Below, one piece after another: positions 1-38,081 of a stretch of 38,081 bases of DNA (position 1 is its first letter; each line of letters starts with the position of its first letter). Below the pieces are notes generated by a model that saw only the letters and a list, made by a program, of their open reading frames with translations, was not told the DNA's origin and ran no database searches. The DNA is from a virus (Duplodnaviria; Heunggongvirae; Uroviricota; Caudoviricetes), in the IMG/VR virus record IMGVR_UViG_2534681701_000006. The stretch is one strand, 5' to 3'. A program made the translations under genes and the position numbers.

Positions 1-297
1 ACAACATCTTCGGCATCAAGTGTTATCGGGAGCAGCTCAGGCTACGTTGTTTTCTGTTGTTGAAGGAGGACGTAGTTTTCCTTCGCGCCAGTACTGGCGC
101 CACTTGAACAGCAAATTATCGTTGATCCCATGCTCACGAGCGAGTTGCGCTACGGAGATCTCTGGTCGATGCGAGAGTTCCACCATTTTGATTTTGAACT
201 CAACGGGATAATTAGGGCTTTTTTTACGCACTGCGGTTAATGATTTCATGAATAGCGTCCACCATATTTGGTGTCCACTATTCTCTCAGGAATTTCA
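1..297 (-). mobile_element. IS3-family insertion sequence, partial (window starts inside it); terminus at 297
   Basis: Minus-strand end reads TGAAATTCCTGAGAGAATAGTGGACAC (plus 271..297), which resembles the IS3 left end as I recall it (TGA start, AATAGTGGACAC block); orfA start lies 48 bp inside. Confidence 0.55.
37..249 (-). CDS. IS3-family transposase OrfA (HTH), 70 aa
   Basis: Translation (…VEFKIKMVELSHRPEISVAQLAREHGINDNLLFKWRQYWREGKL…) has the pattern of IS3/IS2-group OrfA HTH proteins; sits directly inside the IS3-like terminus. Confidence 0.55.
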   Translation of the reverse strand: MKSLTAVRKKSPNYPVEFKIKMVELSHRPEISVAQLAREHGINDNLLFKWRQYWREGKLRPPSTTENNVA

Positions 298-475
298 GGA
301 TCTGCCAGACGGTGCTGAGACGACGCTTACGCACGCAGTTTAGTTGTGTGGTATCCATTCCTTTGGTTGAGGCTTTACCGGTCAGCCCCTGTAACATCTG
401 GCGGTAGGTGTCTTCATCCATACCCAGTTCATTACGGGCAATATGGATAAGCTGTATCAGGCGTTTTTTCTGCAT
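278..475 (-). pseudogene. GemA-like (Mu gp16 family) gene, 3' end truncated by the IS3-family insertion at 297/298
   Basis: N-terminus MQKKRLIQLIHIARNELGMDEDTYRQMLQGLTGKAS matches the GemA/DUF1018 N-terminal motif as I recall it; ORF is 65 aa against roughly 180 aa expected, and its last codons and stop lie inside the IS terminus. AGGAGA RBS upstream of the ATG at 475. Confidence 0.5.
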
Positions 476-3506: not shown

Positions 3507-4673
3507 TTAAACCCCTTTGACAACGTCAGCGTTGACCTGTGGAACCCCGATTTCAGCGGCCAGATTCATGGCGGCTATTACCAGGTTACTGACGGCCAGC
3601 GGATACAGCAGGCTGACCATATTTTTACGATGACTTCCCGGATTGCTCAGGCGGGCACGTATGGCATCCACTGCGCTGGCGTCCATAATGTCCGTCAGTT
3701 GTTTACCGGCCCGTTGCAGTTTGAACGTCAGAAACTCTTCAAGGTTATTGTCCAGAGGCAGAAGTTCGACCACCTCACAGCGCTGAACGACTTCACGGAC
3801 TTCCATATTGCGTTCAGACAGTTTTGTCGCCAGTTCCGGCTGGCCAATCAGCACGATGGACAGCAGTTTTTTGAAACCGGACTCCAGCTCAAAAAAGCGT
3901 TTGAGGTGTTTCAGTGTCGGAATGGGCAGACTGTGGGCCTCCTCAATCACCAGAACGTGGCTGAACCCCGCCTGGCTGCTGTCTTTCAGGACGCGATGCA
4001 ACTGGCGAAAGCGGGCGTCCTGACTGCGTCTGATGCTTTCCAGTGGTGCGATGGTACTGATAATGGCTTCGGCAATCGCTGCTGCCTTCAGGGTTTTCCC
4101 TTTCACATCGTTGTCTTCCATAGCGATGATGTATGGCTCGATAACAATTACCGGCGCATTCTCGCGGTTGATACGTTCAGTCAGGTCGCGGCGCAGCGTG
4201 GATTTACCCGCACCGGACTCACCGATGACGGCCATAAACCCACCATGACGGGCTGTCTGGTACAACGCCTCACGCACGTAGCGAATATCCGGGGTGGTGA
4301 ACACATCATCAGAACCCTGCATGGCTTCGTCGGCGAACGGGTCACGGAAAAGACCAAACGCTTTTTTGGTTGCTGGAAATAACACCTGTTTTTTGAGTAA
4401 CATATTCTCTTCCTCACTGAGGCTCGTTTTATCTGTGGTACCCGCTGTACGGGGCGTGGCCGCGCCCTGTACAGCATCAAAACTCTTCGTTGTATCAATC
4501 CCCTGACTTTCCAGCCAGGACGCAAGACGCCGGCGCACTTCTCCGGGGCTGGTGCGGGGCCACGCGTTATGATTCACAATCTGGGCCAGCGTGGCCTCAG
4601 AAACATCGACAGCTCTCGCCACCACCGCCTGTGGAATACGGGCCTCTTTCAGTTGCTGCTTCAGTACCAGCAT
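3507..4673 (-). CDS. transposition ATPase, MuB-like AAA+ protein
   Basis: Walker A GESGAGKST and Walker B-like HVLVIEEAH; N-terminal HTH-like segment; GGAGGG RBS directly after the transposase stop, ATG at 4673 (ORF track's 4712 start overlaps the transposase). Confidence 0.85.
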   Translation of the reverse strand: MLVLKQQLKEARIPQAVVARAVDVSEATLAQIVNHNAWPRTSPGEVRRRLASWLESQGIDTTKSFDAVQGAATPRTAGTTDKTSLSEEENMLLKKQVLFPATKKAFGLFRDPFADEAMQGSDDVFTTPDIRYVREALYQTARHGGFMAVIGESGAGKSTLRRDLTERINRENAPVIVIEPYIIAMEDNDVKGKTLKAAAIAEAIISTIAPLESIRRSQDARFRQLHRVLKDSSQAGFSHVLVIEEAHSLPIPTLKHLKRFFELESGFKKLLSIVLIGQPELATKLSERNMEVREVVQRCEVVELLPLDNNLEEFLTFKLQRAGKQLTDIMDASAVDAIRARLSNPGSHRKNMVSLLYPLAVSNLVIAAMNLAAEIGVPQVNADVVKGV

Positions 4674-4683
4674 GTTTCCCTCC

Positions 4684-6453
4684 TCAGTTGCCGTTAACAA
4701 TGCTGATAACACTGCTGCGGGCCGGTGTGGTCAGCGTGGCCATGACTTCATCCAGTGCGGCTTCCGGTACGCCGTCCGGGTACTGTGCCGTTAACTGGCG
4801 GTAATGTTCCGGCGTCCAGGTAAGGCCGTCGGCGCTGAACTTATCGCGCAGGGCTTTCGCGGCCTCCACATGAGTCATGGGACGTTGTTCAGTGCGCGGC
4901 CCGCGTACGTCAGAGGCCTGACCACGCTTCGGCATATAGGCCGGAAGTGTGGTGTCGTCGATATGTTTATACGGGTCAAGCCGCCCGCCGAACGGCAGCG
5001 CCTTCGCCTTGCGTGCGGCGGCTGCATCTGCGGCGTTGTCTGTACCGGTAACCAGCGCTTCGGTTTCTTTTGCCGCCATCTGTGCCGGGGTTTCCGGCAG
5101 GGCTTTGTAACTTTCGCCAAATACCGCCGCGCCTTCAGCAAAGCCAAACTTGTTCTTTCTGACCTCTTCGACCAGGAAGAACGTCTCGTGGCCGTCCTCA
5201 CCGGTCAGAACCACCTGTGCCACATCGCTGCGCCATGGGTTACGGGTAATCATCAGTTTTTCACCAACCAGTACGCCCGGTACCGTTGATACGTCAAATT
5301 CAGTGCCCCGGAACGAGACACGAAGTTTTGGCGTGACTTTGCGGAGTTCTGGTGCCGCCACAGCCAGTTCACGACATACCTCAACGGAAGGCGCTTTTTT
5401 CAGCTGCTCAGCAGTAATCTTCAGCCAGATATCCGTGCGGGTTTTACCGTGGCGGCTGTGAACAGCCGTGGCGTTAAAGTGGCTGCGCCATTTCGCGGCC
5501 AGCGCGTTGAGTTCTTCCAGACTGTGAACCGGCCGGAACTTCAGACCCGGCTCCAGCTTGCGTTCGATAATGTCACGCGCCTTTTCCACCTGTCCGGTGG
5601 CGCGGGCGTTATGCGGCTTGTGCGCTATCAGGTCGATGCCCAGTGAGCGGCACATGTTTTTCGTCATACCCGCGGTGTTTGCCGAGCCGGGGTCGAGATA
5701 GAGTATTTTCGGCACGCCGTGCAGCACGTCTGCGCCGCCACGCTCCTGCATGGCGTTGATAAGCACAGAACACAGGTTCTCACCTGATTCCGCGCCCGTC
5801 ACATACTCAACGTAAATCCAGCCGCTGGCATGGTCGGTAATCTCGTAACTCCACACGCGGTCACTGGCGATACGGGCAAGGTTAGCGGGCTTGTTCTTGT
5901 AGAACTTCGCGCTGTCCATCACCTGCAGCCCTTTATGTCCATTGCTCAGGTAGTAAAGCGTGCAGAGTGAGGCGTCAATCTGCCAGACATGATTGGGATG
6001 CAGACTGGCCACTTCGGTATGTGGTGCAGGGGCATCCAGTTGTTCCGGGTGCAGGCCATAGTTACGCAGAGCACGGCTGATGGCATCTTCAGACAACGGG
6101 AAAAACTCACCGGTGGTTTCATCTGTTCTGCCTGCGGTGATAAAGCCGTTAGCCCGCAGGGTTTCCACTGCATCTGCGATGGAATAGAGACGCTTACCGT
6201 TCTTGCGGGTGGCCTCACGCAGTGTGGCAGATATCAGCGCGGCTTCGTCGCGGGTCAGGGCGCTGCGCCCGGCATCGGCGCGTTTTTTGCGTTTATCAGT
6301 CACAGATACCTCCTTCAGCCTGCGCAGCAGAGTGGCGCGGGACATGCCAAGTTCAGCACAGGCAGCGTCGTATATTGCACCGCGTTTACCATGCCCCGCG
6401 TCACGTGCCGCGCGGGCTGTTTCAACCAGTTTTTCAGTCAGTGCCGGGGTCAT
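4684..6453 (-). CDS. DDE transposase, MuA/TnsB-type (Mu transposase family), 589 aa
   Basis: Integrase-core-like region (HVWQIDAS…) and size; immediately upstream of the AAA+ ATPase partner, as in Mu A-B. Confidence 0.85.
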   Translation of the reverse strand: MTPALTEKLVETARAARDAGHGKRGAIYDAACAELGMSRATLLRRLKEVSVTDKRKKRADAGRSALTRDEAALISATLREATRKNGKRLYSIADAVETLRANGFITAGRTDETTGEFFPLSEDAISRALRNYGLHPEQLDAPAPHTEVASLHPNHVWQIDASLCTLYYLSNGHKGLQVMDSAKFYKNKPANLARIASDRVWSYEITDHASGWIYVEYVTGAESGENLCSVLINAMQERGGADVLHGVPKILYLDPGSANTAGMTKNMCRSLGIDLIAHKPHNARATGQVEKARDIIERKLEPGLKFRPVHSLEELNALAAKWRSHFNATAVHSRHGKTRTDIWLKITAEQLKKAPSVEVCRELAVAAPELRKVTPKLRVSFRGTEFDVSTVPGVLVGEKLMITRNPWRSDVAQVVLTGEDGHETFFLVEEVRKNKFGFAEGAAVFGESYKALPETPAQMAAKETEALVTGTDNAADAAAARKAKALPFGGRLDPYKHIDDTTLPAYMPKRGQASDVRGPRTEQRPMTHVEAAKALRDKFSADGLTWTPEHYRQLTAQYPDGVPEAALDEVMATLTTPARSSVISIVNGN

Positions 6454-8801: not shown

Positions 8802-8834
8802 ACCGGAAAGCATTGTGCTTTCCGGTTTTGTTTC
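8802..8834 (+). terminator. rho-independent terminator downstream of the repressor gene
   Basis: Stem ACCGGAAAGC / GCTTTCCGGT with loop ATTGT, followed by TTTTGTTTC. Confidence 0.5.
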
Positions 8835-9597
8835 AGAAGTTGCAGATTAGCAGTTCACGGCGCGGCGTGGGTTTACCCGCCAGACTGTAGTTGATATTCA
8901 CTGTCTGTATGTTCAGTCCAGTGAACACCTCGCGCATCTGCGGGATGTCGTTCACCGAAATTATCATTTTTCCTCTGATGCACCGGGCCAGCTCTGCCAG
9001 CCGCGAGTAGTTCCCTTCAGGAAAATCCACACCATAGCCTTCCGTACCCAGGTACGGTGGGTCGCAGTAGAACAGCGTGTGCGGACGATCATAACGCTCA
9101 ATGCACTGTTGCCAGTCCATGTGTTCTATGACTGTTCTGGAAAGCCGCAGGTGTGCCGCTGACAGTTCTTCTTCAATACGTAGCAGGTTGAAGCGTGGCG
9201 GGGATGTGGTGGAGGTACCGAAGCTGTGCTCTGCCACCTTGCCGCCAAACGCCTGCTTCTGAAGGTAGTAGAACCGTGCCGCACGCTGGATATCCGTCAG
9301 TGTTTCTTCCGGGGTGATCTGCAGCCATTTGTAGATCTGACGGCTGACCAGCGCCCATTTGAACTGGCGGACAAATTCTTCCAGGTGATGCTTTACCACC
9401 CGGTACAGATTCACCAGTTCACCGTTGATATCATTGATGACTTCGATCTTGCCGGGTGTCTTAAGAAAATAGAGCGCTGCTGCCCCACAAAACGGCTCCA
9501 CATAACATTCATGCGCCGGAAACAGCGGCAGAATGTGTTTTGCAAGGCGGCGTTTGCCACCAATCCACGGCACGATGGGTAATGTCTGCATTTTCAT
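8833..9597 (-). CDS. DNA N6-adenine methyltransferase, Dam/D12 class (orphan, no cognate endonuclease seen)
   Basis: PWIGGKRRL (Dam motif-I-like) near the N-terminus and catalytic DPPY; start most likely the ATG at 9597 rather than 9687. Confidence 0.8.
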   Translation of the reverse strand: MKMQTLPIVPWIGGKRRLAKHILPLFPAHECYVEPFCGAAALYFLKTPGKIEVINDINGELVNLYRVVKHHLEEFVRQFKWALVSRQIYKWLQITPEETLTDIQRAARFYYLQKQAFGGKVAEHSFGTSTTSPPRFNLLRIEEELSAAHLRLSRTVIEHMDWQQCIERYDRPHTLFYCDPPYLGTEGYGVDFPEGNYSRLAELARCIRGKMIISVNDIPQMREVFTGLNIQTVNINYSLAGKPTPRRELLICNF

Positions 9598-9787
9598 AAT
9601 CTGTAAGCCTTTTACAATTATTAAAAAATATGGCAGTCTGGTCAGGTCTCGCGAGACTGACTGAACCTTGGTCGGCTCACAGCGCATTCCTGTGGGGCGA
9701 TGACCAGCCCGGCTTTCGGGTGCCGGGCTGGTCGTTCTTTCATGATGCGGCAGGGATGGCGGGATTTCTGTTAATGTGGTTTAGGGA

Positions 9788-17698: not shown

Positions 17699-19194
17699 TG
17701 GCGAGGGGTATCTGGGTTTCACCCGATGAATTTGTTGCTTTTTCTGAGCCTCAGAAATCACTGACCGCGCAGATTGCCTCCCGCAGCCGCGCGATCGACT
17801 TTTACGGACTGGGCATGTATCTGCCCAATCCTGATCCCATTCTCAAGGCTCAGGGACGGGATATCCGTATCTACCGCGAACTGCGCACCGACCCGCTGGT
17901 CGGGGGCTGTATCCGCAGACGTAAAGCAGCGCTCAAATCGCTGGAGCGTGGACTGGAGCGTGGTCACGCCTCTGCCCGGGTCTTCCGTTTCATCCGCGAC
18001 ATGCTCGACGATCTGGATCTGTCCCGCATCATCGGTGAAATGAGCGATGCCGTGCTCTACGGGTATCAGCCCTGTGAAATCATGTGGGGCCGTTCGGTCA
18101 GGTCGTGGGCGGTGACGGATATTGTCGGCAAACCGCCTGAGTGGTTTCAGTTTGATACGGACAACTGCCTGCGCTTTCGGGCGCGTGATGCGGGTGTGGA
18201 GGGTGAGCTGCTGTCACCGTCAAAATTCGTGGTGCCGGCACAGGATGCCTCGTATGACAATCCTTACGGTTTCCCGGACCTGTCCATGTGCTTCTGGCCG
18301 GTCGCCTTCAAGAAAGGCGGGATGAAATTCTGGCTCCGCTTTGCCGAAAAGTTTGGCTCCCCGTGGGTGATCGGTAAGCACCCGAGGGGCGCAAATGATG
18401 CAGAGATTGAAAAACTGCTGGACTCCATGGAGCAGATGGTGGAGGAAGCGGTGGCCGCCATCCCCGATGACAGCAGTATTGAGCTCAGGGCAGCGGATGG
18501 CAAGGCAGACAGCAGCGAGGTATTTCGCGAGCTGATCACACTGTCACGCAGTAAGATCTCCATTGCATTACTCGGTCAGAATCAGACCACGGAAGCGAAC
18601 AGTAACAAGGCCTCTGCACAGGCCGGGCTGGAGGTAACGGCTGATATCCGCGATGCGGATGCGGACATCATTCAGGCGGCAGTGAATCAGGTCATCAGAA
18701 CGGTGGTCACCCTGAACTTCGGCGATGTGCCGTGTCCGGTCTGGGCCATGTGGGAACAGGAGGCCATTGATGACACCCGTGCCACCCGCGACGAAAAACT
18801 CACCCGGGCGGGTCTGCGTCTGACCCCGCAGTACTTCAAGCGTGAGTACCAACTGCAGGACGGCGATATTGACGAGACACCACCGTCGGAACGCCAGAAT
18901 AACATGCTGCCGCTGTCATTTGCCGAGGCGATTGATGCTGATATTCAGGCTCAGCAGCAGCTTGACGACGCGCTGGACATTCTGATGAACGGAGGCGCGT
19001 TAAATGGCACGCTGGAACCCGTCCTGGCACCTCTGTTCAGGCGGGTCGAAAACGGGGTTAACCCGTCTGAGCTGCTGGGCGAACTGGCGGAGCTCTACCC
19101 TCAGATGAACACGGACGATCTGCAGGAGCGGCTGGCCCGCATTCTCTTTGTGGCAAATATCTGGGGGCGTCTGCATGAGCGTGACAACGGCTGA
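17698..19194 (+). CDS. portal protein (Mu gp29-like), 498 aa
   Basis: Size and position between terminase and the Mu F-like gene. Confidence 0.75.
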   Translation: MARGIWVSPDEFVAFSEPQKSLTAQIASRSRAIDFYGLGMYLPNPDPILKAQGRDIRIYRELRTDPLVGGCIRRRKAALKSLERGLERGHASARVFRFIRDMLDDLDLSRIIGEMSDAVLYGYQPCEIMWGRSVRSWAVTDIVGKPPEWFQFDTDNCLRFRARDAGVEGELLSPSKFVVPAQDASYDNPYGFPDLSMCFWPVAFKKGGMKFWLRFAEKFGSPWVIGKHPRGANDAEIEKLLDSMEQMVEEAVAAIPDDSSIELRAADGKADSSEVFRELITLSRSKISIALLGQNQTTEANSNKASAQAGLEVTADIRDADADIIQAAVNQVIRTVVTLNFGDVPCPVWAMWEQEAIDDTRATRDEKLTRAGLRLTPQYFKREYQLQDGDIDETPPSERQNNMLPLSFAEAIDADIQAQQQLDDALDILMNGGALNGTLEPVLAPLFRRVENGVNPSELLGELAELYPQMNTDDLQERLARILFVANIWGRLHERDNG

Positions 19195-34932: not shown

Positions 34933-36224
34933 ATGGGAAACCTGAATGAAACAGAAAAGTGGGAAGAAAATATCTATCAACTGGAGACATCAGATCCGGT
35001 TCTGGGTGGTGCAGACGGGATATCAAATCGAGCCCCCGGCAACTGGCAAACAGGACGAAATGGCTGAAGAAGAAAACGGAGGAAGCCGCACAGTCACTGG
35101 CTGAACACGTACGTTCCCGTAACCACCCGGACGCGACACTGACAGCTAAGGGGTTCACCCAACTGAGCAGTGCCACCAACAGCACCTCTGAAACGCTGGC
35201 CGCCACACCAAAAGCGGTCAAGGCTGCATACGACCTGGCAGCCGGCAAGGCGCCTGCCAGCCACACTCACCCGTGGAGTCAGATAACGGGAGTGCCTGCG
35301 GCTTCACTGACGGCAAAAGGCACCGTACAACTGAGCAGCGCCACGGACAGTCAATCAGAAACTGAGGCTGCCACGCCGAAGGCGGTCAAGGCTGCATACG
35401 ACCTTGCAGCCGGCAAGGCGCCCGTCAGCCACACTCACCCGTGGAGTCAGATAACGGGAGTGCCTGCTGCCTCGCTGACGGCAAAAGGCACCGTACAACT
35501 GAGCAGTGCCATCAACAGCACGTCTGAAATACTGGCCGCCACACCGAAAGCGGTCAAGGCTGCATACGATCTGGCAAACGGAAAACAACCGGCAGATGCC
35601 ACGCTCACTGCTCTGGCAGGACTTGCCACTGCAGCAGATCGGTTGCCTTATTTTACCGGAGCAGACCGCGCAGCGCTGGCAACCCTTACAGCTATTGGTC
35701 GCGCTATTATCGCTAAGGGCAGTATAAAAGATGTCCTCAATTACCTTGGTTTGGGGGAAGGCTCTGCATTGCCTGTTGGTGTACCGGTTCCATGGCCCAC
35801 CGCCACACCGCCAGCAGGCTGGTTAAAGTGCGACGGGCGCGCCTTTACAAAAGAACAATATCCTGTTCTGGCCAGAGTCTACCCGACCCTCCGTCTTCCC
35901 GATTTACGCGGTGAGTTTATCCGTGGATGGGACGACGGGCGCAAGATTGACGAGGGGCGTAAGTTGCTTTCATGGCAGAAAGGTACACTGGTCGGCGGTC
36001 ATGACGATAACGATTCTTCGCTTGATATCTCGTACATGAGTAACGGAAATAATATTGACTATGGCGGCGATAAGGTGTTTGCGGGGAATTACCGTAGCGA
36101 TTATTTGTGGTACGTAATTCTGGGTGGAACAAACAGTCGCGCAAAAGCCGAATTAAACGGAGCATTCTTTAACATAACCCGCCCCCGCAATATCGCGTTT
36201 AACTATATCGTGAGGGCGGCGTGA
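34933..36224 (+). CDS. tail fibre protein with an apparent frameshift in a C5 tract (35034..35038) and phage tail-fibre repeats
   Basis: ATG at 34933 encodes MGNLNETEKWEENIYQLETSDPVLGGADGISNRAP, which resembles tail-fibre N-termini as I recall them, then hits a stop; the long ORF continues in another frame from 34959. Three ~56-aa repeats; conserved C-terminal NYIVRA. Confidence 0.7.
35745..35944. repeat. left arm of ~200-bp perfect inverted repeat flanking the invertible tail-fibre cassette
   Basis: Identical in reverse complement to 37166..37362; invertase half-site-like sequence (GGTTTGGGGGAA) at its outer edge. Confidence 0.8.
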
Positions 36225-36230
36225 TACCGT

Positions 36231-36845
36231 TCAACTGGCAAGTGCCAGTGGCGCTTCCGGCCAGCTGATTTCAGGTGCCGTGCTGATATCCAGTGCGTTC
36301 AGCTCGTCGATATAATCCAGCACGGCGTTCAGTTTTGCCGTTTCTTCTGGTGTCAGACTGCGACCAGCACGCAGTTTGAGGTTGATAAGATCGACTGACG
36401 CCATCGCCTGTTTCACCCGTTGCTGGCGTTGCTGTCTGGCAACCTCCAGTTCTGCGGCTCGCTGCCGTTCAGTATCGGTTACCCACGCCTCACCGTTCCA
36501 GGTATCCCATGGCGTGGCTGGCTGTTTTGTGGTGGTGTCCGCCGGGTAATCACCCGGTTGGGTAATCAGAACAGGGTTACCGTTCTCCGTGCTGTATACC
36601 GTCTCGCCGCGGTGATCAGGCACATGCTCCCACCCGTTCAGCGTGGCAGTCCGGCAAACCACGTAACCCGAAATTGCCTCCGGCGGTGCATCGGCGCACG
36701 AATGTGCCGGAGTACCCACCCCAAGGGCGAGATACTCCACAGAGGATGAGGTGTATTCCCGGGTTTCCTCGTCATAGTGATATACAGTGATATCGCCCGC
36801 TACAGTGGCGATACCGTTTTCATCCAGAACTGCAGTGTTACTCAT
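36231..36845 (-). CDS. tail fibre assembly protein (Tfa, Mu U-like), 204 aa
   Basis: Tfa-like size and sequence; immediately downstream of the alternative fibre C-terminus on the minus strand. Confidence 0.7.
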   Translation of the reverse strand: MSNTAVLDENGIATVAGDITVYHYDEETREYTSSSVEYLALGVGTPAHSCADAPPEAISGYVVCRTATLNGWEHVPDHRGETVYSTENGNPVLITQPGDYPADTTTKQPATPWDTWNGEAWVTDTERQRAAELEVARQQRQQRVKQAMASVDLINLKLRAGRSLTPEETAKLNAVLDYIDELNALDISTAPEISWPEAPLALAS

Positions 36846-37357
36846 TAAACTGCCCTCACAATGTAATTAAGTGCAATGCTACGGGGTCTGACAGTGATAC
36901 CCTTCGCATACCCGCTTCTGATAGAGGTCAGAATAGTAGCCTGCATACCATTGTCTGACATTGCCACGACAGGATCGCTGAATGTTGTCCCGTCCGGCAT
37001 TTTAAAGCTGCCCTCACGAAGGTCTGTAATGGAATCTTCATTGTTGAATCCCATGCCGACTATCCCCGAGGTTCCCGTAGTGTCCTGGTTATAATAATCC
37101 AGCATTGCTGTTCTTAACAGCGTTGCCCCTTGTGCGGACAGCAACTTACGTCCTGTATCAACTTTGCGCCCGTCGTCCCATCCACGGATAAACTCACCGC
37201 GTAAATCGGGAAGACGGAGGGTCGGGTAGACTCTGGCCAGAACAGGATATTGTTCTTTTGTAAAGGCGCGCCCGTCGCACTTTAACCAGCCTGCTGGCGG
37301 TGTGGCGGTGGGCCATGGAACCGGTACACCAACAGGCAATGCAGAGCCTTCCCCCAA
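36845..37357 (-). CDS. alternative tail fibre C-terminal cassette (S'v-like), with no start codon of its own
   Basis: First ~64 aa are identical to an internal segment of the plus-strand fibre (inverted repeat), then diverge; ends in NYIVRAV, paralleling the expressed fibre. Confidence 0.6.
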   Translation of the reverse strand: MGEGSALPVGVPVPWPTATPPAGWLKCDGRAFTKEQYPVLARVYPTLRLPDLRGEFIRGWDDGRKVDTGRKLLSAQGATLLRTAMLDYYNQDTTGTSGIVGMGFNNEDSITDLREGSFKMPDGTTFSDPVVAMSDNGMQATILTSIRSGYAKGITVRPRSIALNYIVRAV

Positions 37358-37362
37358 ACCAA
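37166..37362. repeat. right arm of the inverted repeat flanking the invertible tail-fibre cassette
   Basis: Reverse complement is identical to 35745..35944. Confidence 0.8.
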
Positions 37363-37428
37363 CGTTTATCTCTCAAATCCTCCCCACATTATCTCAGTAC
37401 TTTAACCACTCAAAAGGGAGTATTTTTA

Positions 37429-38001
37429 ATGCTGATTGGCTACATACGTGTGTCAACAAATGACCAAAACATAGATTTGCAACGCAATGCATTAATGTGC
37501 GCAGGATGTGAACAGATTTTTGAGGACAAAATGAGCGGAACCAAGTCGGAACGACCAGGCCTGAAACGCGCTTTAAAGTGCCTTAAAAGAGGGGATACAT
37601 TGGTGGTCTGGAAGCTGGATCGGTTGGGTAGAAGAATGAAACACCTCATTGCTCTCACAGAAGAGCTACGCGCAAAAGGTGTCAATTTTCGCAGTCTGAC
37701 GGATTCAATCGATACCAGCACTCCGATGGGAAGGTTCTTTTTTCATATGATGGGTGCACTGGCAGAAATGGAGCGTGAACTGATAGTTGAGCGCACGCTG
37801 GCAGGACTGGCTGCTGCGCGAGCACAAGGAAGAGTTGGAGGACGTCGCCCGAAACTGACGAAGGAGCAGCATGAGCAGATCGCAAGATTGCTCCAGAAAG
37901 GGTATGACAGAAAGCGGCTGGCAATTATCTATGATATTGGACTGTCAACGATCTACCGCTATCACCCTGTTGGGACTGTCATAACGCAACCTGAAATGTA
38001 A
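37429..38001 (+). CDS. serine recombinase, DNA invertase of the Gin/Pin/Cin/Hin family, 190 aa
   Basis: N-terminal MLIGYIRVSTNDQ catalytic-serine motif and C-terminal HTH; GGGAG RBS; adjacent to the invertible fibre cassette. The ORF-track start at 37300 is an upstream extension. Confidence 0.9.
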   Translation: MLIGYIRVSTNDQNIDLQRNALMCAGCEQIFEDKMSGTKSERPGLKRALKCLKRGDTLVVWKLDRLGRRMKHLIALTEELRAKGVNFRSLTDSIDTSTPMGRFFFHMMGALAEMERELIVERTLAGLAAARAQGRVGGRRPKLTKEQHEQIARLLQKGYDRKRLAIIYDIGLSTIYRYHPVGTVITQPEM

Positions 38002-38032
38002 TTCTTTTTCAAATAATGAAACGCCGCGTGGA

Positions 38033-38079
38033 TGCCATTTATCGCACAAGATAGAGTGCATTTATCGCGCGGCGCATCA
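38033..38079. other. putative prophage right end: two direct repeats (CATTTATCGC) ending in …GCGCATCA, resembling Mu attR transposase-binding sites
   Basis: GCCATTTATCGCACA and GCATTTATCGCGCGG about 25 bp apart; resembles the Mu right-end R sites as I recall them, and Mu-type ends terminate in CA. Confidence 0.3.
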
Positions 38080-38081
38080 CC

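What the first reader, a model, noticed from the sequence alone, without database searches (positions are those of the whole stretch)
38033..38081. Candidate prophage right end about 80 bp after the invertase gene
Two copies of a GCATTTATCGC-type motif, followed by …GCGCATCA, resemble the arrangement of MuA-binding R sites at the Mu right end (as I recall it), and the terminal CA matches Mu-type transposon ends. If correct, the prophage-host junction is at about 38079/38080 and only 2 bp of host DNA are in the window.
Basis: partly seen in the sequence, partly recalled or inferred. Interest (0 to 1): 0.45.

Follow-up and report, generated by a model that had tools for sequence, protein, structure and literature searches.

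The report
Right end of a BcepMu-like prophage
The last bases of the window are the true right-hand end of a transposing, Mu-style prophage found in about one in nine complete E. coli genomes.

Summary
Confirmed. Window 38034-38079 holds two imperfect 23-bp direct repeats (cores ATTTATCGC at 38037-38045 and 38060-38068) and ends in ...GCGCATCA. In 599 of 5426 complete E. coli genomes the same sequence is present, and homology stops at window 38079. Beyond it lie unrelated host genes (irp2, yehY, dmsC, gspL, phnP, fdrA, aroA). A rebuilt empty irp2 site matches 2239 genomes at 143/143 nt.

Intact copies (37,566 bp) begin TGATTAGACTTGAGATAAATG..., the imperfect inverted partner of this end. They are flanked by exact 6-bp target duplications (6 of 6 in E. 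coli, 4 of 5 in other genera), not Mu's 5 bp.

The element is a BcepMu-type transposable prophage (ST131 EC958 'Phi2' type, phage PhiKM). Its rve-type transposase is 68% identical to BcepMu TnpA and cannot be aligned to MuA. BcepMu shares the same two-site end layout, and a pattern built from it found at least 120 ends in beta- and gamma-proteobacteria. The Mu resemblance is real (16 of 21 terminal bases), but this is not a Mu attR.

The left end is not in the window: an IS66-family element (1-330) cuts the prophage about 828 bp from its left terminus. That TnpA binds the repeats is inferred. Known kind, low interest.

The parts
38078..38079 (+). Terminal 5'-CA-3' of the prophage right end (the inferred transposase cleavage and joining point). 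The prophage-host junction is 38079/38080.
   Evidence: Eight aligned junctions are invariant up to A38079 and diverge after it. In 52 of 60 evenly sampled E. coli hits the alignment stops at query 680, which is 38079. The empty-site reconstruction agrees.
38057..38079 (+). R1: the terminal 23-bp repeat unit, core ATTTATCGCG at 38060-38069. Read inward the end is TGATGCGCCGCGCGATAAATG. Inferred transposase (TnpA) binding site.
   Evidence: The same register and core (YGMGATAWWT at 11-20 nt from the terminus) occur at both ends of BcepMu and at the E. coli left end. They also occur in at least 120 ends from other genomes. 23-bp imperfect repeats are described for BcepMu and phiE255 (PMC2920897).
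38034..38056 (+). R2: the second 23-bp repeat unit, core ATTTATCGCAC at 38037-38047. Inferred second TnpA binding site, in direct orientation with R1.
   Evidence: The core GYGMGATAWWT lies 33-43 nt from the terminus across the family.
38017..38028 (-). CGCGGCGTTTCA block. The TTTC(A) about 58-62 nt from the terminus is conserved in at least half of right-end-class sequences. Role unknown; a third site is possible.
   Evidence: Right-class consensus. GTTTCA lies on the - strand ending at 38022. Not tested further.
38080..38081 (.). Two bases (CC) of host DNA, presumably the first 2 bp of the 6-bp target duplication. The insertion site of this particular copy cannot be identified from 2 bp.
   Evidence: Flanks differ between genomes from this position on.
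37429..38001 (+). Gin/Cin-type serine DNA invertase, the last gene of the prophage. No mom-like gene lies between it and the end.
   Evidence: Pfam Resolvase (5.7e-51) plus HTH_7. Annotated as a recombinase family protein in all copies.
35743..37365 (.). Invertible tail-fibre segment bounded by 229-nt inverted repeats (35743-35971 and 37137-37365). The invertase crossover site is at 37349-37374, so it is not the terminal repeats.
   Evidence: repeat I1, 96% complementary. There is an exact match to the EC958 Phi2_3prime crossover site (PMC4134206).
4684..6453 (-). Transposase TnpA (589 aa, DDE/rve core), the protein inferred to bind R1/R2 and cut at the CA.
   Evidence: Pfam rve only. It is 68% identical to BcepMu TnpA, 56% to phage B3 transposase A and 99.7% to phage PhiKM. 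No significant BLASTP match to MuA.
3507..4712 (-). AAA+ transposition ATPase (ExeA/Eha-like), in the position that MuB occupies in Mu.
   Evidence: Pfam AAA_22, 3.8e-20. The BcepMu gp08 'DNA transposition protein' sits at the same place.
1..330 (-). End of an IS66-family insertion sequence (TnpA accessory gene; terminal inverted repeat GTAAGCG... ending at 330). It interrupts the prophage inside the gp16/gemA-like gene. The prophage's left terminus and Mor gene (about 828 bp) are therefore not in the window.
   Evidence: Compared with the intact copy in strain Eco889.

Best explanation
Window 38034-38079 is the right terminus (attR) of a BcepMu-type (genus Bcepmuvirus) transposable prophage of E. 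coli. It consists of two imperfect 23-bp direct repeats (R1 terminal, R2 internal), each with a (G)YGMGATAWWT core when read inward, and a terminal 5'-CA-3'. The left end of intact copies carries the same two sites in inverted orientation.

Inferred mechanism: the phage's rve-type DDE transposase (window 4684-6453) binds the four sites and pairs the ends with help from the AAA+ ATPase (3507-4712). It nicks at the 3' CA and joins the ends to target DNA with a 6-bp stagger, which gives the 6-bp duplications.

Shown here: the exact junction, the inverted partner, the 6-bp duplications, an empty site, the many insertion sites, and family-wide conservation of the site layout.

Inferred: that TnpA binds these repeats, the chemistry, and replicative transposition. 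In this window the copy is disrupted by an IS66-family element and its left end is not visible, so this copy may no longer be mobile.
For: Junction:
- 599 of 5426 complete E. coli genomes carry the region at 99% identity or more. In 52 of 60 evenly sampled hits the alignment stops at 38079.
- Eight junctions are identical up to A38079 and then run into different host genes.

Other end and duplication:
- Intact copies are 37,566 bp and start TGATTAGACTTGAGATAAATG.
- 6 of 6 E. coli insertions have exact 6-bp duplications: CCTGAG, CCCTGC, CCATCG, CCTGGG, CCAGTT, CCTCGC.
- Left flank plus one CCTGAG plus right flank equals intact irp2 at 143/143 nt in 2239 genomes.

Family:
- The transposase is 68% identical to BcepMu TnpA. 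Gene order matches BcepMu, with Mor next to the left end and the early operon leftward.
- BcepMu's left and right ends have the same TGAW-N6-YGMGATAWWT-N12-GYGMGATAWWT layout.
- That pattern hit at least 120 loci in the species-representative genome collection, where I calculate about 0.5 by chance.
- The hits fall into a left class with Mor, gp16, TnpA and ATPase homologues inside, and a right class with invertase and tail-fibre assembly genes inside.
- 4 of 5 paired ends in other genera have 6-bp duplications.

Literature:
- TG...CA termini are characteristic of BcepMu relatives (PMC2628397).
Against: - No binding or transposition experiment exists for this E. coli element. Calling the repeats TnpA sites rests on position and conservation.
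- In the window itself only 2 bp of flank are visible, so the junction is established from other copies, not from this genome.
- The left end is missing from the window (IS66-family element at 1-330), so this copy's integrity is unknown.
- The BcepMu prophage in B. cenocepacia NCTC13227 has both ends 36,748 bp apart but no matching duplication.
- The family pattern was derived from only four ends. The conservation it reports at the specified positions is therefore partly circular. Only the hit count, the gene content inside the ends and the duplications are independent evidence.
Confidence: 0.93

Rival explanations
1. It is the attR of a true Mu-family (Muvirus) prophage, and the repeats are MuA R1/R2 sites.
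For: The terminal 21 nt are 16/21 identical to the real Mu right end in fixed register. Mu's second site also contains CGATAAATG, offset by 1 nt. The TG...CA termini and the invertase-plus-invertible-tail-fibre module resemble Mu's G/gin region.
Against: - The transposase has only an rve domain and none of the Mu-specific Pfam domains.
- BLASTP against MuA gives E = 0.47. Mu is absent from the 69 phage records that tblastn hit.
- The duplication is 6 bp, not 5.
- The CGAAA half-site, as I recall the MuA consensus, is absent from the last 79 nt.
- The early operon is inverted relative to Mu, and there is no mom gene.
Confidence: 0.02
2. The two repeats are a chance or non-transposition feature of the invertase gene's 3' flank (terminator, invertase crossover or enhancer site), and the apparent end is a recombination breakpoint.
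For: The repeats lie only 33-78 bp after the invertase stop codon. A window-wide count of two near-matches is not by itself significant.
Against: - No terminator-like or promoter-like site lies in 37300-38081.
- The invertase crossover sites are elsewhere, at 37349-37374 and inside the 229-nt repeats.
- 0 of 1500 simulations give such a close pair.
- The same sites occur at left ends that have no invertase nearby, and in BcepMu, whose right end follows an acyltransferase gene.
- The breakpoint is the same base at many independent insertion sites, each with a 6-bp duplication.
Confidence: 0.02
3. It is the attR of a site-specifically integrating prophage (integrase-mediated), and the repeats are arm-type integrase sites.
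For: Directly repeated short sites next to a prophage boundary also occur at lambda-type attachment sites.
Against: - No integrase gene is annotated in a complete copy.
- Insertions lie in at least seven unrelated genes, with no shared core sequence, only a different 6-bp duplication each time.
- A DDE transposase and a transposition ATPase are present.
Confidence: 0.01

Closest known systems
Burkholderia phages BcepMu and phiE255 (genus Bcepmuvirus): genome termini with 23-bp imperfect direct repeats
   Same: TG...CA termini. Two directly repeated sites per end in the same register (cores at 11-20 and 33-43 nt from the terminus). An rve/Tn552-like TnpA (68% identity) plus an Eha/ExeA-like ATPase. 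Mor and GemA next to the left end with a leftward early operon, and P2-like tail genes.
   Different: The host is E. coli. The right arm ends with a Gin-type invertase and invertible tail-fibre segment, where BcepMu has an acyltransferase gene. The terminal bases are TGAT rather than TGAA. The BcepMu prophage copy examined (NCTC13227) shows no 6-bp duplication, whereas the E. coli copies do.
E. coli ST131 EC958 prophage 'Phi2' and Escherichia phage PhiKM (PQ738613, classified as Bcepmuvirus)
   Same: It is the same element. The window carries an exact match to the published Phi2 invertase crossover site and a comparable inverted repeat (229 nt at 96% here, 227 bp at 96% in Phi2). The PhiKM transposase is 99.7% identical.
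   Different: In the passages I read, the EC958 paper did not describe Phi2 as transposable and did not define its ends. PhiKM is a partial, permuted record without defined ends. The window copy additionally carries an IS66-family insertion.
Bacteriophage Mu attR (MuA sites R1, R2, R3)
   Same: A terminal CA. Two direct sites next to the terminus (22-bp spacing in Mu, 23 bp here). 16/21 identity over the terminal 21 nt, and a shared CGATAAATG in the second site. The right arm carries an invertase/G-segment-like module.
   Different: MuA and this TnpA cannot be aligned by BLASTP. The duplication is 5 bp in Mu (established knowledge) and 6 bp here. Mu's CGAAA half-site, as I recall the consensus, is absent. 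Mu has mom between gin and the end, and its left end (TGTATTGATTC...) is in a different register.
Tn552- and Tn7-type transposon ends (rve transposase plus AAA+ partner, several repeated transposase sites per end)
   Same: An rve-type DDE transposase paired with an AAA+ ATPase, several directly repeated binding sites in each end, and TG...CA-type termini. BcepMu TnpA is annotated as 'Tn552/IS1604 rve transposase'. From my own knowledge, not tested here, Tn552 makes 6-7 bp duplications.
   Different: This is a 37.6-kb phage genome, not a small transposon. No sequence comparison with Tn552 or TnsB was made here. NCBIfam gives only weak, below-cut-off similarity to IS481 and IS21 transposases.

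Membership tests
BcepMu-like transposable phages (Bcepmuvirus) | 5'-TG...CA-3' termini at the prophage-host junctions | tested here: met
   The left end starts TGATT and the right end finishes ...CATCA in 6 E. coli copies. The literature describes this as characteristic of BcepMu relatives (PMC2628397).
BcepMu-like transposable phages (Bcepmuvirus) | Imperfect 23-bp direct repeats at each end, inverted between the ends, similar to those of BcepMu | tested here: met
   The four ends of BcepMu and the E. coli element fit TGAW-N6-YGMGATAWWT-N12-GYGMGATAWWT. At least 120 further ends fit it. The repeats are described for BcepMu and phiE255 in PMC2920897.
BcepMu-like transposable phages (Bcepmuvirus) | rve-type (Tn552-like) transposase homologous to BcepMu TnpA, with an adjacent AAA+ transposition protein | tested here: met
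   68% identity over 98% of the protein. Pfam rve and AAA_22. Same gene positions as BcepMu gp09 and gp08.
BcepMu-like transposable phages (Bcepmuvirus) | Early/transposition operon transcribed leftward, with Mor and GemA next to the left end (inverted relative to Mu) | tested here: met
   Annotated maps of intact E. coli copies and of BcepMu.
BcepMu-like transposable phages (Bcepmuvirus) | Insertion at many sites by transposition, with a short target duplication | tested here: met
   At least 7 different host genes are interrupted. Exact 6-bp duplications occur in 6 of 6 E. coli and 4 of 5 other-genus pairs. An empty site was found.
BcepMu-like transposable phages (Bcepmuvirus) | Replicative transposition and packaging of flanking host DNA into virions | not testable with these tools
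   This needs induction and sequencing of virion DNA. It is reported for BcepMu and phiE255 (PMC2920897).
Mu (Muvirus) attR / MuA system | MuA-type transposase | tested here: not met
   Pfam finds only rve. BLASTP against MuA gives E = 0.47. Mu is not among the 69 tblastn hits. No PDB MuA match at E <= 0.01. Fold-level similarity was not tested.
Mu (Muvirus) attR / MuA system | 5-bp target site duplication | tested here: not met
   The duplication is 6 bp in 10 of 11 complete copies examined.
Mu (Muvirus) attR / MuA system | Three 22-bp MuA sites (R1 and R2 direct, R3 inverted) with the GTTTCA...CGAAA consensus (consensus recalled from memory) | tested here: not met
   There are two sites at 23-bp spacing. 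CGAAA is absent from the last 79 nt, and a single GTTTCA lies about 58-63 nt in. The terminal 21 nt are nevertheless 16/21 identical to Mu R1.
Mu (Muvirus) attR / MuA system | Terminal 5'-CA-3' | tested here: met
Integrase-type prophage attachment site | A tyrosine or serine integrase gene and a fixed attB with a shared core at both junctions | tested here: not met
   No integrase is annotated in a complete copy. Insertion sites differ and share no core.

The most novel reading that the evidence does not exclude
The right end may be older and more mobile than the transposase that uses it.

- The Mu and BcepMu-type right termini are about as similar to each other (16/21 over the terminal 21 nt) as the E. 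coli and Burkholderia BcepMu-type ends are. Yet MuA and TnpA cannot be aligned by BLASTP.
- The same end, still adjoining the invertase and tail-fibre cassette, sits as a fossil in P1-like phage-plasmids, with homology stopping exactly at the CA.

The reading is that the invertase/tail-fibre cassette plus right end is a module. It would have been exchanged between transposable phage lineages, and captured by P1-like plasmids after a transposition event followed by deletion. It would also mean that the end-binding specificity of the two transposase families shares an origin.
Probability: 0.35. Interest if true: 0.4.

Novelty: already known. Interest (0 to 1): 0.15.

Why it matters
Mainly as annotation. 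It fixes the exact right boundary (38079) of a prophage carried by about 11% of complete E. coli genomes, many of them human clinical isolates such as ST131. Pipelines label this prophage loosely; one GenBank record names it after the unrelated phage P88.

It also identifies the prophage as a transposable BcepMu-type phage that inserts almost anywhere with a 6-bp duplication. Such insertions disrupt genes, including irp2 for yersiniabactin synthesis, yehY, dmsC and gspL.

It adds no new biology about the end itself. The two-site, TG...CA architecture was already described for BcepMu and phiE255.

Tried and rejected
- **Inverted partner inside the window.** None was found. The left terminus is not in the window because an IS66-family element cuts the prophage at 330/331.
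- **5-bp duplication.** A 5-bp model (CCTGA with the left end starting GTGATT) fitted the first case only. It was rejected because the base before TGATT differs between insertions, and all six fit 6 bp.
- **Source genome.** No complete E. coli genome has the IS66-prophage junction, so the source genome and its insertion site could not be identified.
- **Terminator or promoter reading of the last 780 bp.** Nothing was found.
- **Solved structures for TnpA and the ATPase.** The PDB sequence search gave nothing useful. NCBIfam gave only sub-threshold IS481 and IS21 similarity.
- **The original BcepMu paper** (J Mol Biol 2004) is not in the library. What it says about ends and duplications is known to me only through citing papers.
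- **A misleading end pair.** A Pectobacterium colocasium left/right pair had matching 6-bp flanks, but the ends lie 491 kb apart and face the same way. I did not count it.
- **Not done.** I did not run the large protein searches or structure prediction, because they would not change the verdict on this DNA feature.

Full report
**The observation**

The last 49 bases of the window read ...GGATGCCATTTATCGCACAAGATAGAGTGCATTTATCGCGCGGCGCATCA|CC.
- GCATTTATCGC occurs exactly at 38058-38068 and with one mismatch at 38035-38045. Both copies are on the + strand, 23 bp apart, and there is no other copy on either strand of the window.
- Two near-matches anywhere in 38 kb are unremarkable: 18 of 100 shuffles reach that.
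- A same-strand pair within 40 bp never arose in 1500 first-order Markov simulations. The real window has only two places with an exact 10-mer direct repeat inside 50 nt, and this is one of them.
- The invertase ORF (Pfam Resolvase plus HTH_7) is 37429-38001, so the proposed end lies 78 bp after it.

**Is 38079/38080 a real junction?**

The region 37400-38081 is present at 99% identity or more in 599 of 5426 complete E. coli genomes.
- In an even sample of 60 hits down the ranking, the alignment stops at query position 680 (window 38079) in 52. It stops at 681 in 4 and at 682 in 4, about what random flanking bases would give.
- Eight junctions aligned base by base are invariant up to A38079 and unrelated afterwards.
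- The flanks are ordinary host genes: irp2, yehY, dmsC, gspL, phnP, fdrA and aroA.
- The 'CC' seen after the end in my first six loci is a ranking artefact, because full-length matches to a query that includes the CC rank first.

No phage genes continue past the end in any copy.

**The other end, the duplication and the empty site**

In strain Eco889 the N-terminal part of irp2 stops at ...GCGCCTGAG and is followed by TGATTAGACTTGAGATAAATGACAGGG..., then Mor, gp16 and further genes on the minus strand. The element from that TG to the CA is 37,566 bp.

Six independent insertions all show an exact 6-bp direct duplication. A 5-bp model fails because the base before TGATT varies.

| Interrupted gene | Duplication |
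|---|---|
| irp2 | CCTGAG |
| yehY | CCCTGC |
| dmsC | CCATCG |
| gspL | CCTGGG |
| fdrA | CCAGTT |
| phnP | CCTCGC |

Joining the Eco889 left flank, one CCTGAG and the right flank gives a 143-nt sequence. It is found at 143/143 identity inside intact irp2 in many genomes (at least 80% of it matches in 2239).

**What the element is**

A complete copy encodes, from left to right:
- Mor, gp16/GemA-like, Gam, an ExeA-like AAA+ ATPase, an 'integrase catalytic domain' protein, DUF3102 and helix-turn-helix regulators, all transcribed leftward;
- then lysis genes, Mu-like head genes, P2-like tail genes, an invertible tail-fibre segment and the invertase.

In the window:
- The transposase (4684-6453, minus strand, 589 aa) has only an rve domain.
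- It is 99.7% identical to that of Escherichia phage PhiKM (GenBank taxonomy Bcepmuvirus), 68% to BcepMu and phiE255 TnpA, and 56% to Pseudomonas phage B3 transposase A. Mu is not among the 69 phage records hit.
- BLASTP against MuA gives E = 0.47, and the PDB sequence search finds no MuA match.
- The 229-nt inverted repeats at 35743-35971 and 37137-37365, and an exact copy of the published 'Phi2_3prime' crossover site at 37349-37374, identify the prophage with Phi2 of the ST131 reference strain EC958 (PMC4134206).

**The end architecture is a family trait**

Read inward from the terminus, four ends compare as follows:

| End | Sequence read inward |
|---|---|
| E. coli right | TGATGCGCCGCGCGATAAATGCACTCTATCTTGTGCGATAAATGG |
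| E. coli left | TGATTAGACTTGAGATAAATGACAGGGAATAAGTGAGATATTTAT |
| BcepMu right | TGAAGCGCGGCGCGATATTTCAGCACGTCGACGCGCGATAAATTC |
| BcepMu left | TGAAGAGAGGTGAGATATTTCCAAGGGAGAACGCGCGATATTTCC |

All four fit TGAW-N6-YGMGATAWWT-N12-GYGMGATAWWT.
- I calculate about 41 bits of specification, so about 0.5 chance matches would be expected in the 596-Gb species-representative genome collection. That figure assumes equal base frequencies and is my calculation, not a tool result.
- The hits fall into two classes. The right-type is TGAWGCGSSGCGCGATAWWT. The left-type is TGAW.AGA.GTGAGATAWWT followed by GGGA-rich repeats.
- Homologues of Mor, gp16, TnpA and the ATPase occur only in left-class loci. Invertase and tail-fibre assembly homologues occur only in right-class loci.
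- Five contigs hold a convergent left/right pair. Four have exact 6-bp duplications: Serratia nevei (35,846 bp), Brenneria sp. (37,570 bp), Apirhabdus apintestini (36,761 bp) and Erwinia tracheiphila (63,793 bp). The BcepMu prophage of B. cenocepacia NCTC13227 (36,748 bp) has none.

Published work already states two things. TG...CA termini characterise BcepMu relatives with an rve transposase (PMC2628397). [quoted passage not shown]

**Mechanism**

Shown here: the exact ends, the inverted two-site layout, the 6-bp staggered target joins, near-random target choice and family-wide conservation.

Inferred from the general chemistry of DDE transposases and from the BcepMu literature:
- TnpA binds R1 (38057-38079) and R2 (38034-38056) and their left-end counterparts.
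- It forms a paired-end complex with the AAA+ ATPase (3507-4712).
- It nicks 3' of the terminal CA and transfers the ends into target DNA 6 bp apart.
- During lytic growth the phage replicates by repeated transposition.

No terminator- or promoter-like signal competes for the region.

The real Mu right end, read inward, is TGAAGCGGCGCACGAAAAACGCGAAAGCGTTTCACGATAAATGCG.
- It is 16/21 identical to the window's end in fixed register. That equals the E. coli-to-BcepMu right-end similarity.
- Only one other position among about 76,000 in the window reaches that score.
- Mu's second site holds the same CGATAAATG one base closer to the terminus.

So the recalled resemblance is genuine.

**This particular copy**

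- Window 1-330 is the end of an IS66-family element: the TnpA accessory gene plus a terminal inverted repeat GTAAGCG... ending at 330.
- Prophage homology begins at 331, inside the gp16/gemA-like gene and 828 bp from the left terminus of intact copies.
- No complete E. coli genome in the collection has this IS-prophage junction.
Whether this copy still has a left end is unknown, and its insertion site cannot be read from 2 bp.

**Verdict**

The finding is correct and precisely placed. It is the right terminus of a known kind of element, indeed of an already catalogued E. coli prophage. Novelty: already known. Interest: low.

Two side observations are more interesting than the finding itself. 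The first is the Mu and BcepMu end similarity despite transposases that cannot be aligned. The second is the fossil copy of this end in P1-like phage-plasmids.

Noticed in passing
L138 3100-3190 (E. coli plasmid NZ_CP022228.3, 92.5 kb); L140 1290-1365 (Punavirus phage vB_EcoM-673R5): P1-like phage-plasmids carry this right end as a fossil. The plasmid's tail-fibre/invertase cassette is 98-99% identical to window 35743-38079, and homology stops exactly at ...GCGCATCA|TCATTTG, next to holin and head-protein genes. Two Punavirus phages have a diverged copy (...ACATTTATCGCGCGGCACATCA|ATTCG) between a split hin/cin gene and lydC. Canonical P1 was not among the hits. This suggests the cassette was captured after a transposition event.
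   Followed up: partly
L136 1-50 and L137 369-418 (phage Mu ends) compared with window 38030-38079: The Mu right end and the BcepMu-type right end share 16 of 21 terminal bases and a CGATAAATG second-site core, although MuA and TnpA cannot be aligned by BLASTP (E = 0.47). The Mu left end is in a different register.
   Followed up: partly
L008 5023-5028 and L002 2181-2186 (E. coli Eco889, irp2): Most of the best-matching E. coli genomes have the prophage inside irp2, the yersiniabactin synthetase HMWP2 gene, at the same site (duplication CCTGAG). This presumably inactivates yersiniabactin synthesis in a widespread lineage. Intact irp2 is present in many other genomes.
   Followed up: partly
window 1-330: An IS66-family element (TnpA accessory gene; terminal repeat GTAAGCGTCGTCTCAGCACCG on the minus strand ending at 330) is inserted in the prophage's gp16/gemA-like gene. 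This junction is absent from all 5426 complete E. coli genomes searched.
   Followed up: yes
L017 6179 and L076 2926 (B. cenocepacia NCTC13227): The BcepMu prophage has both canonical ends exactly 36,748 bp apart, but its flanks (CGAGCATG / AATTGGAC) show no target duplication. This differs from 10 other complete copies examined. A rearrangement between copies, or a replicative-transposition product, is possible.
   Followed up: no
L016-L135, the 12 nt outside each end: The 6 bp next to 113 ends show a weak palindromic target preference of roughly N-C-W-W-G-N. Counts are C in 53/113 at position 2, A or T in 85/113 at position 3, T in 53/113 at position 4 and G in 53/113 at position 5.
   Followed up: partly
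L008 5070-5110 and left-class loci; window 38017-38028: Left ends carry short GGGA(A/T)-type repeats every 11-12 nt inward of the second site. Right ends carry a conserved TTTC(A) about 58-62 nt from the terminus. Either could be a further protein-binding site; the function is unknown.
   Followed up: no
window 17945-17970: A tandem-like exact 10-mer repeat (CTGGAGCGTGGACTGGAGCGTGGTC) lies inside the 498-aa DUF935/portal-like ORF. It is the only other place in the window with a 10-mer direct repeat within 50 nt.
   Followed up: no
window 8833-9687 (minus strand): A D12-class N6-adenine DNA methyltransferase gene (Pfam 8.7e-29) sits in the prophage's accessory region between the regulators and the lysis genes. 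It is absent from the BcepMu map.
   Followed up: no
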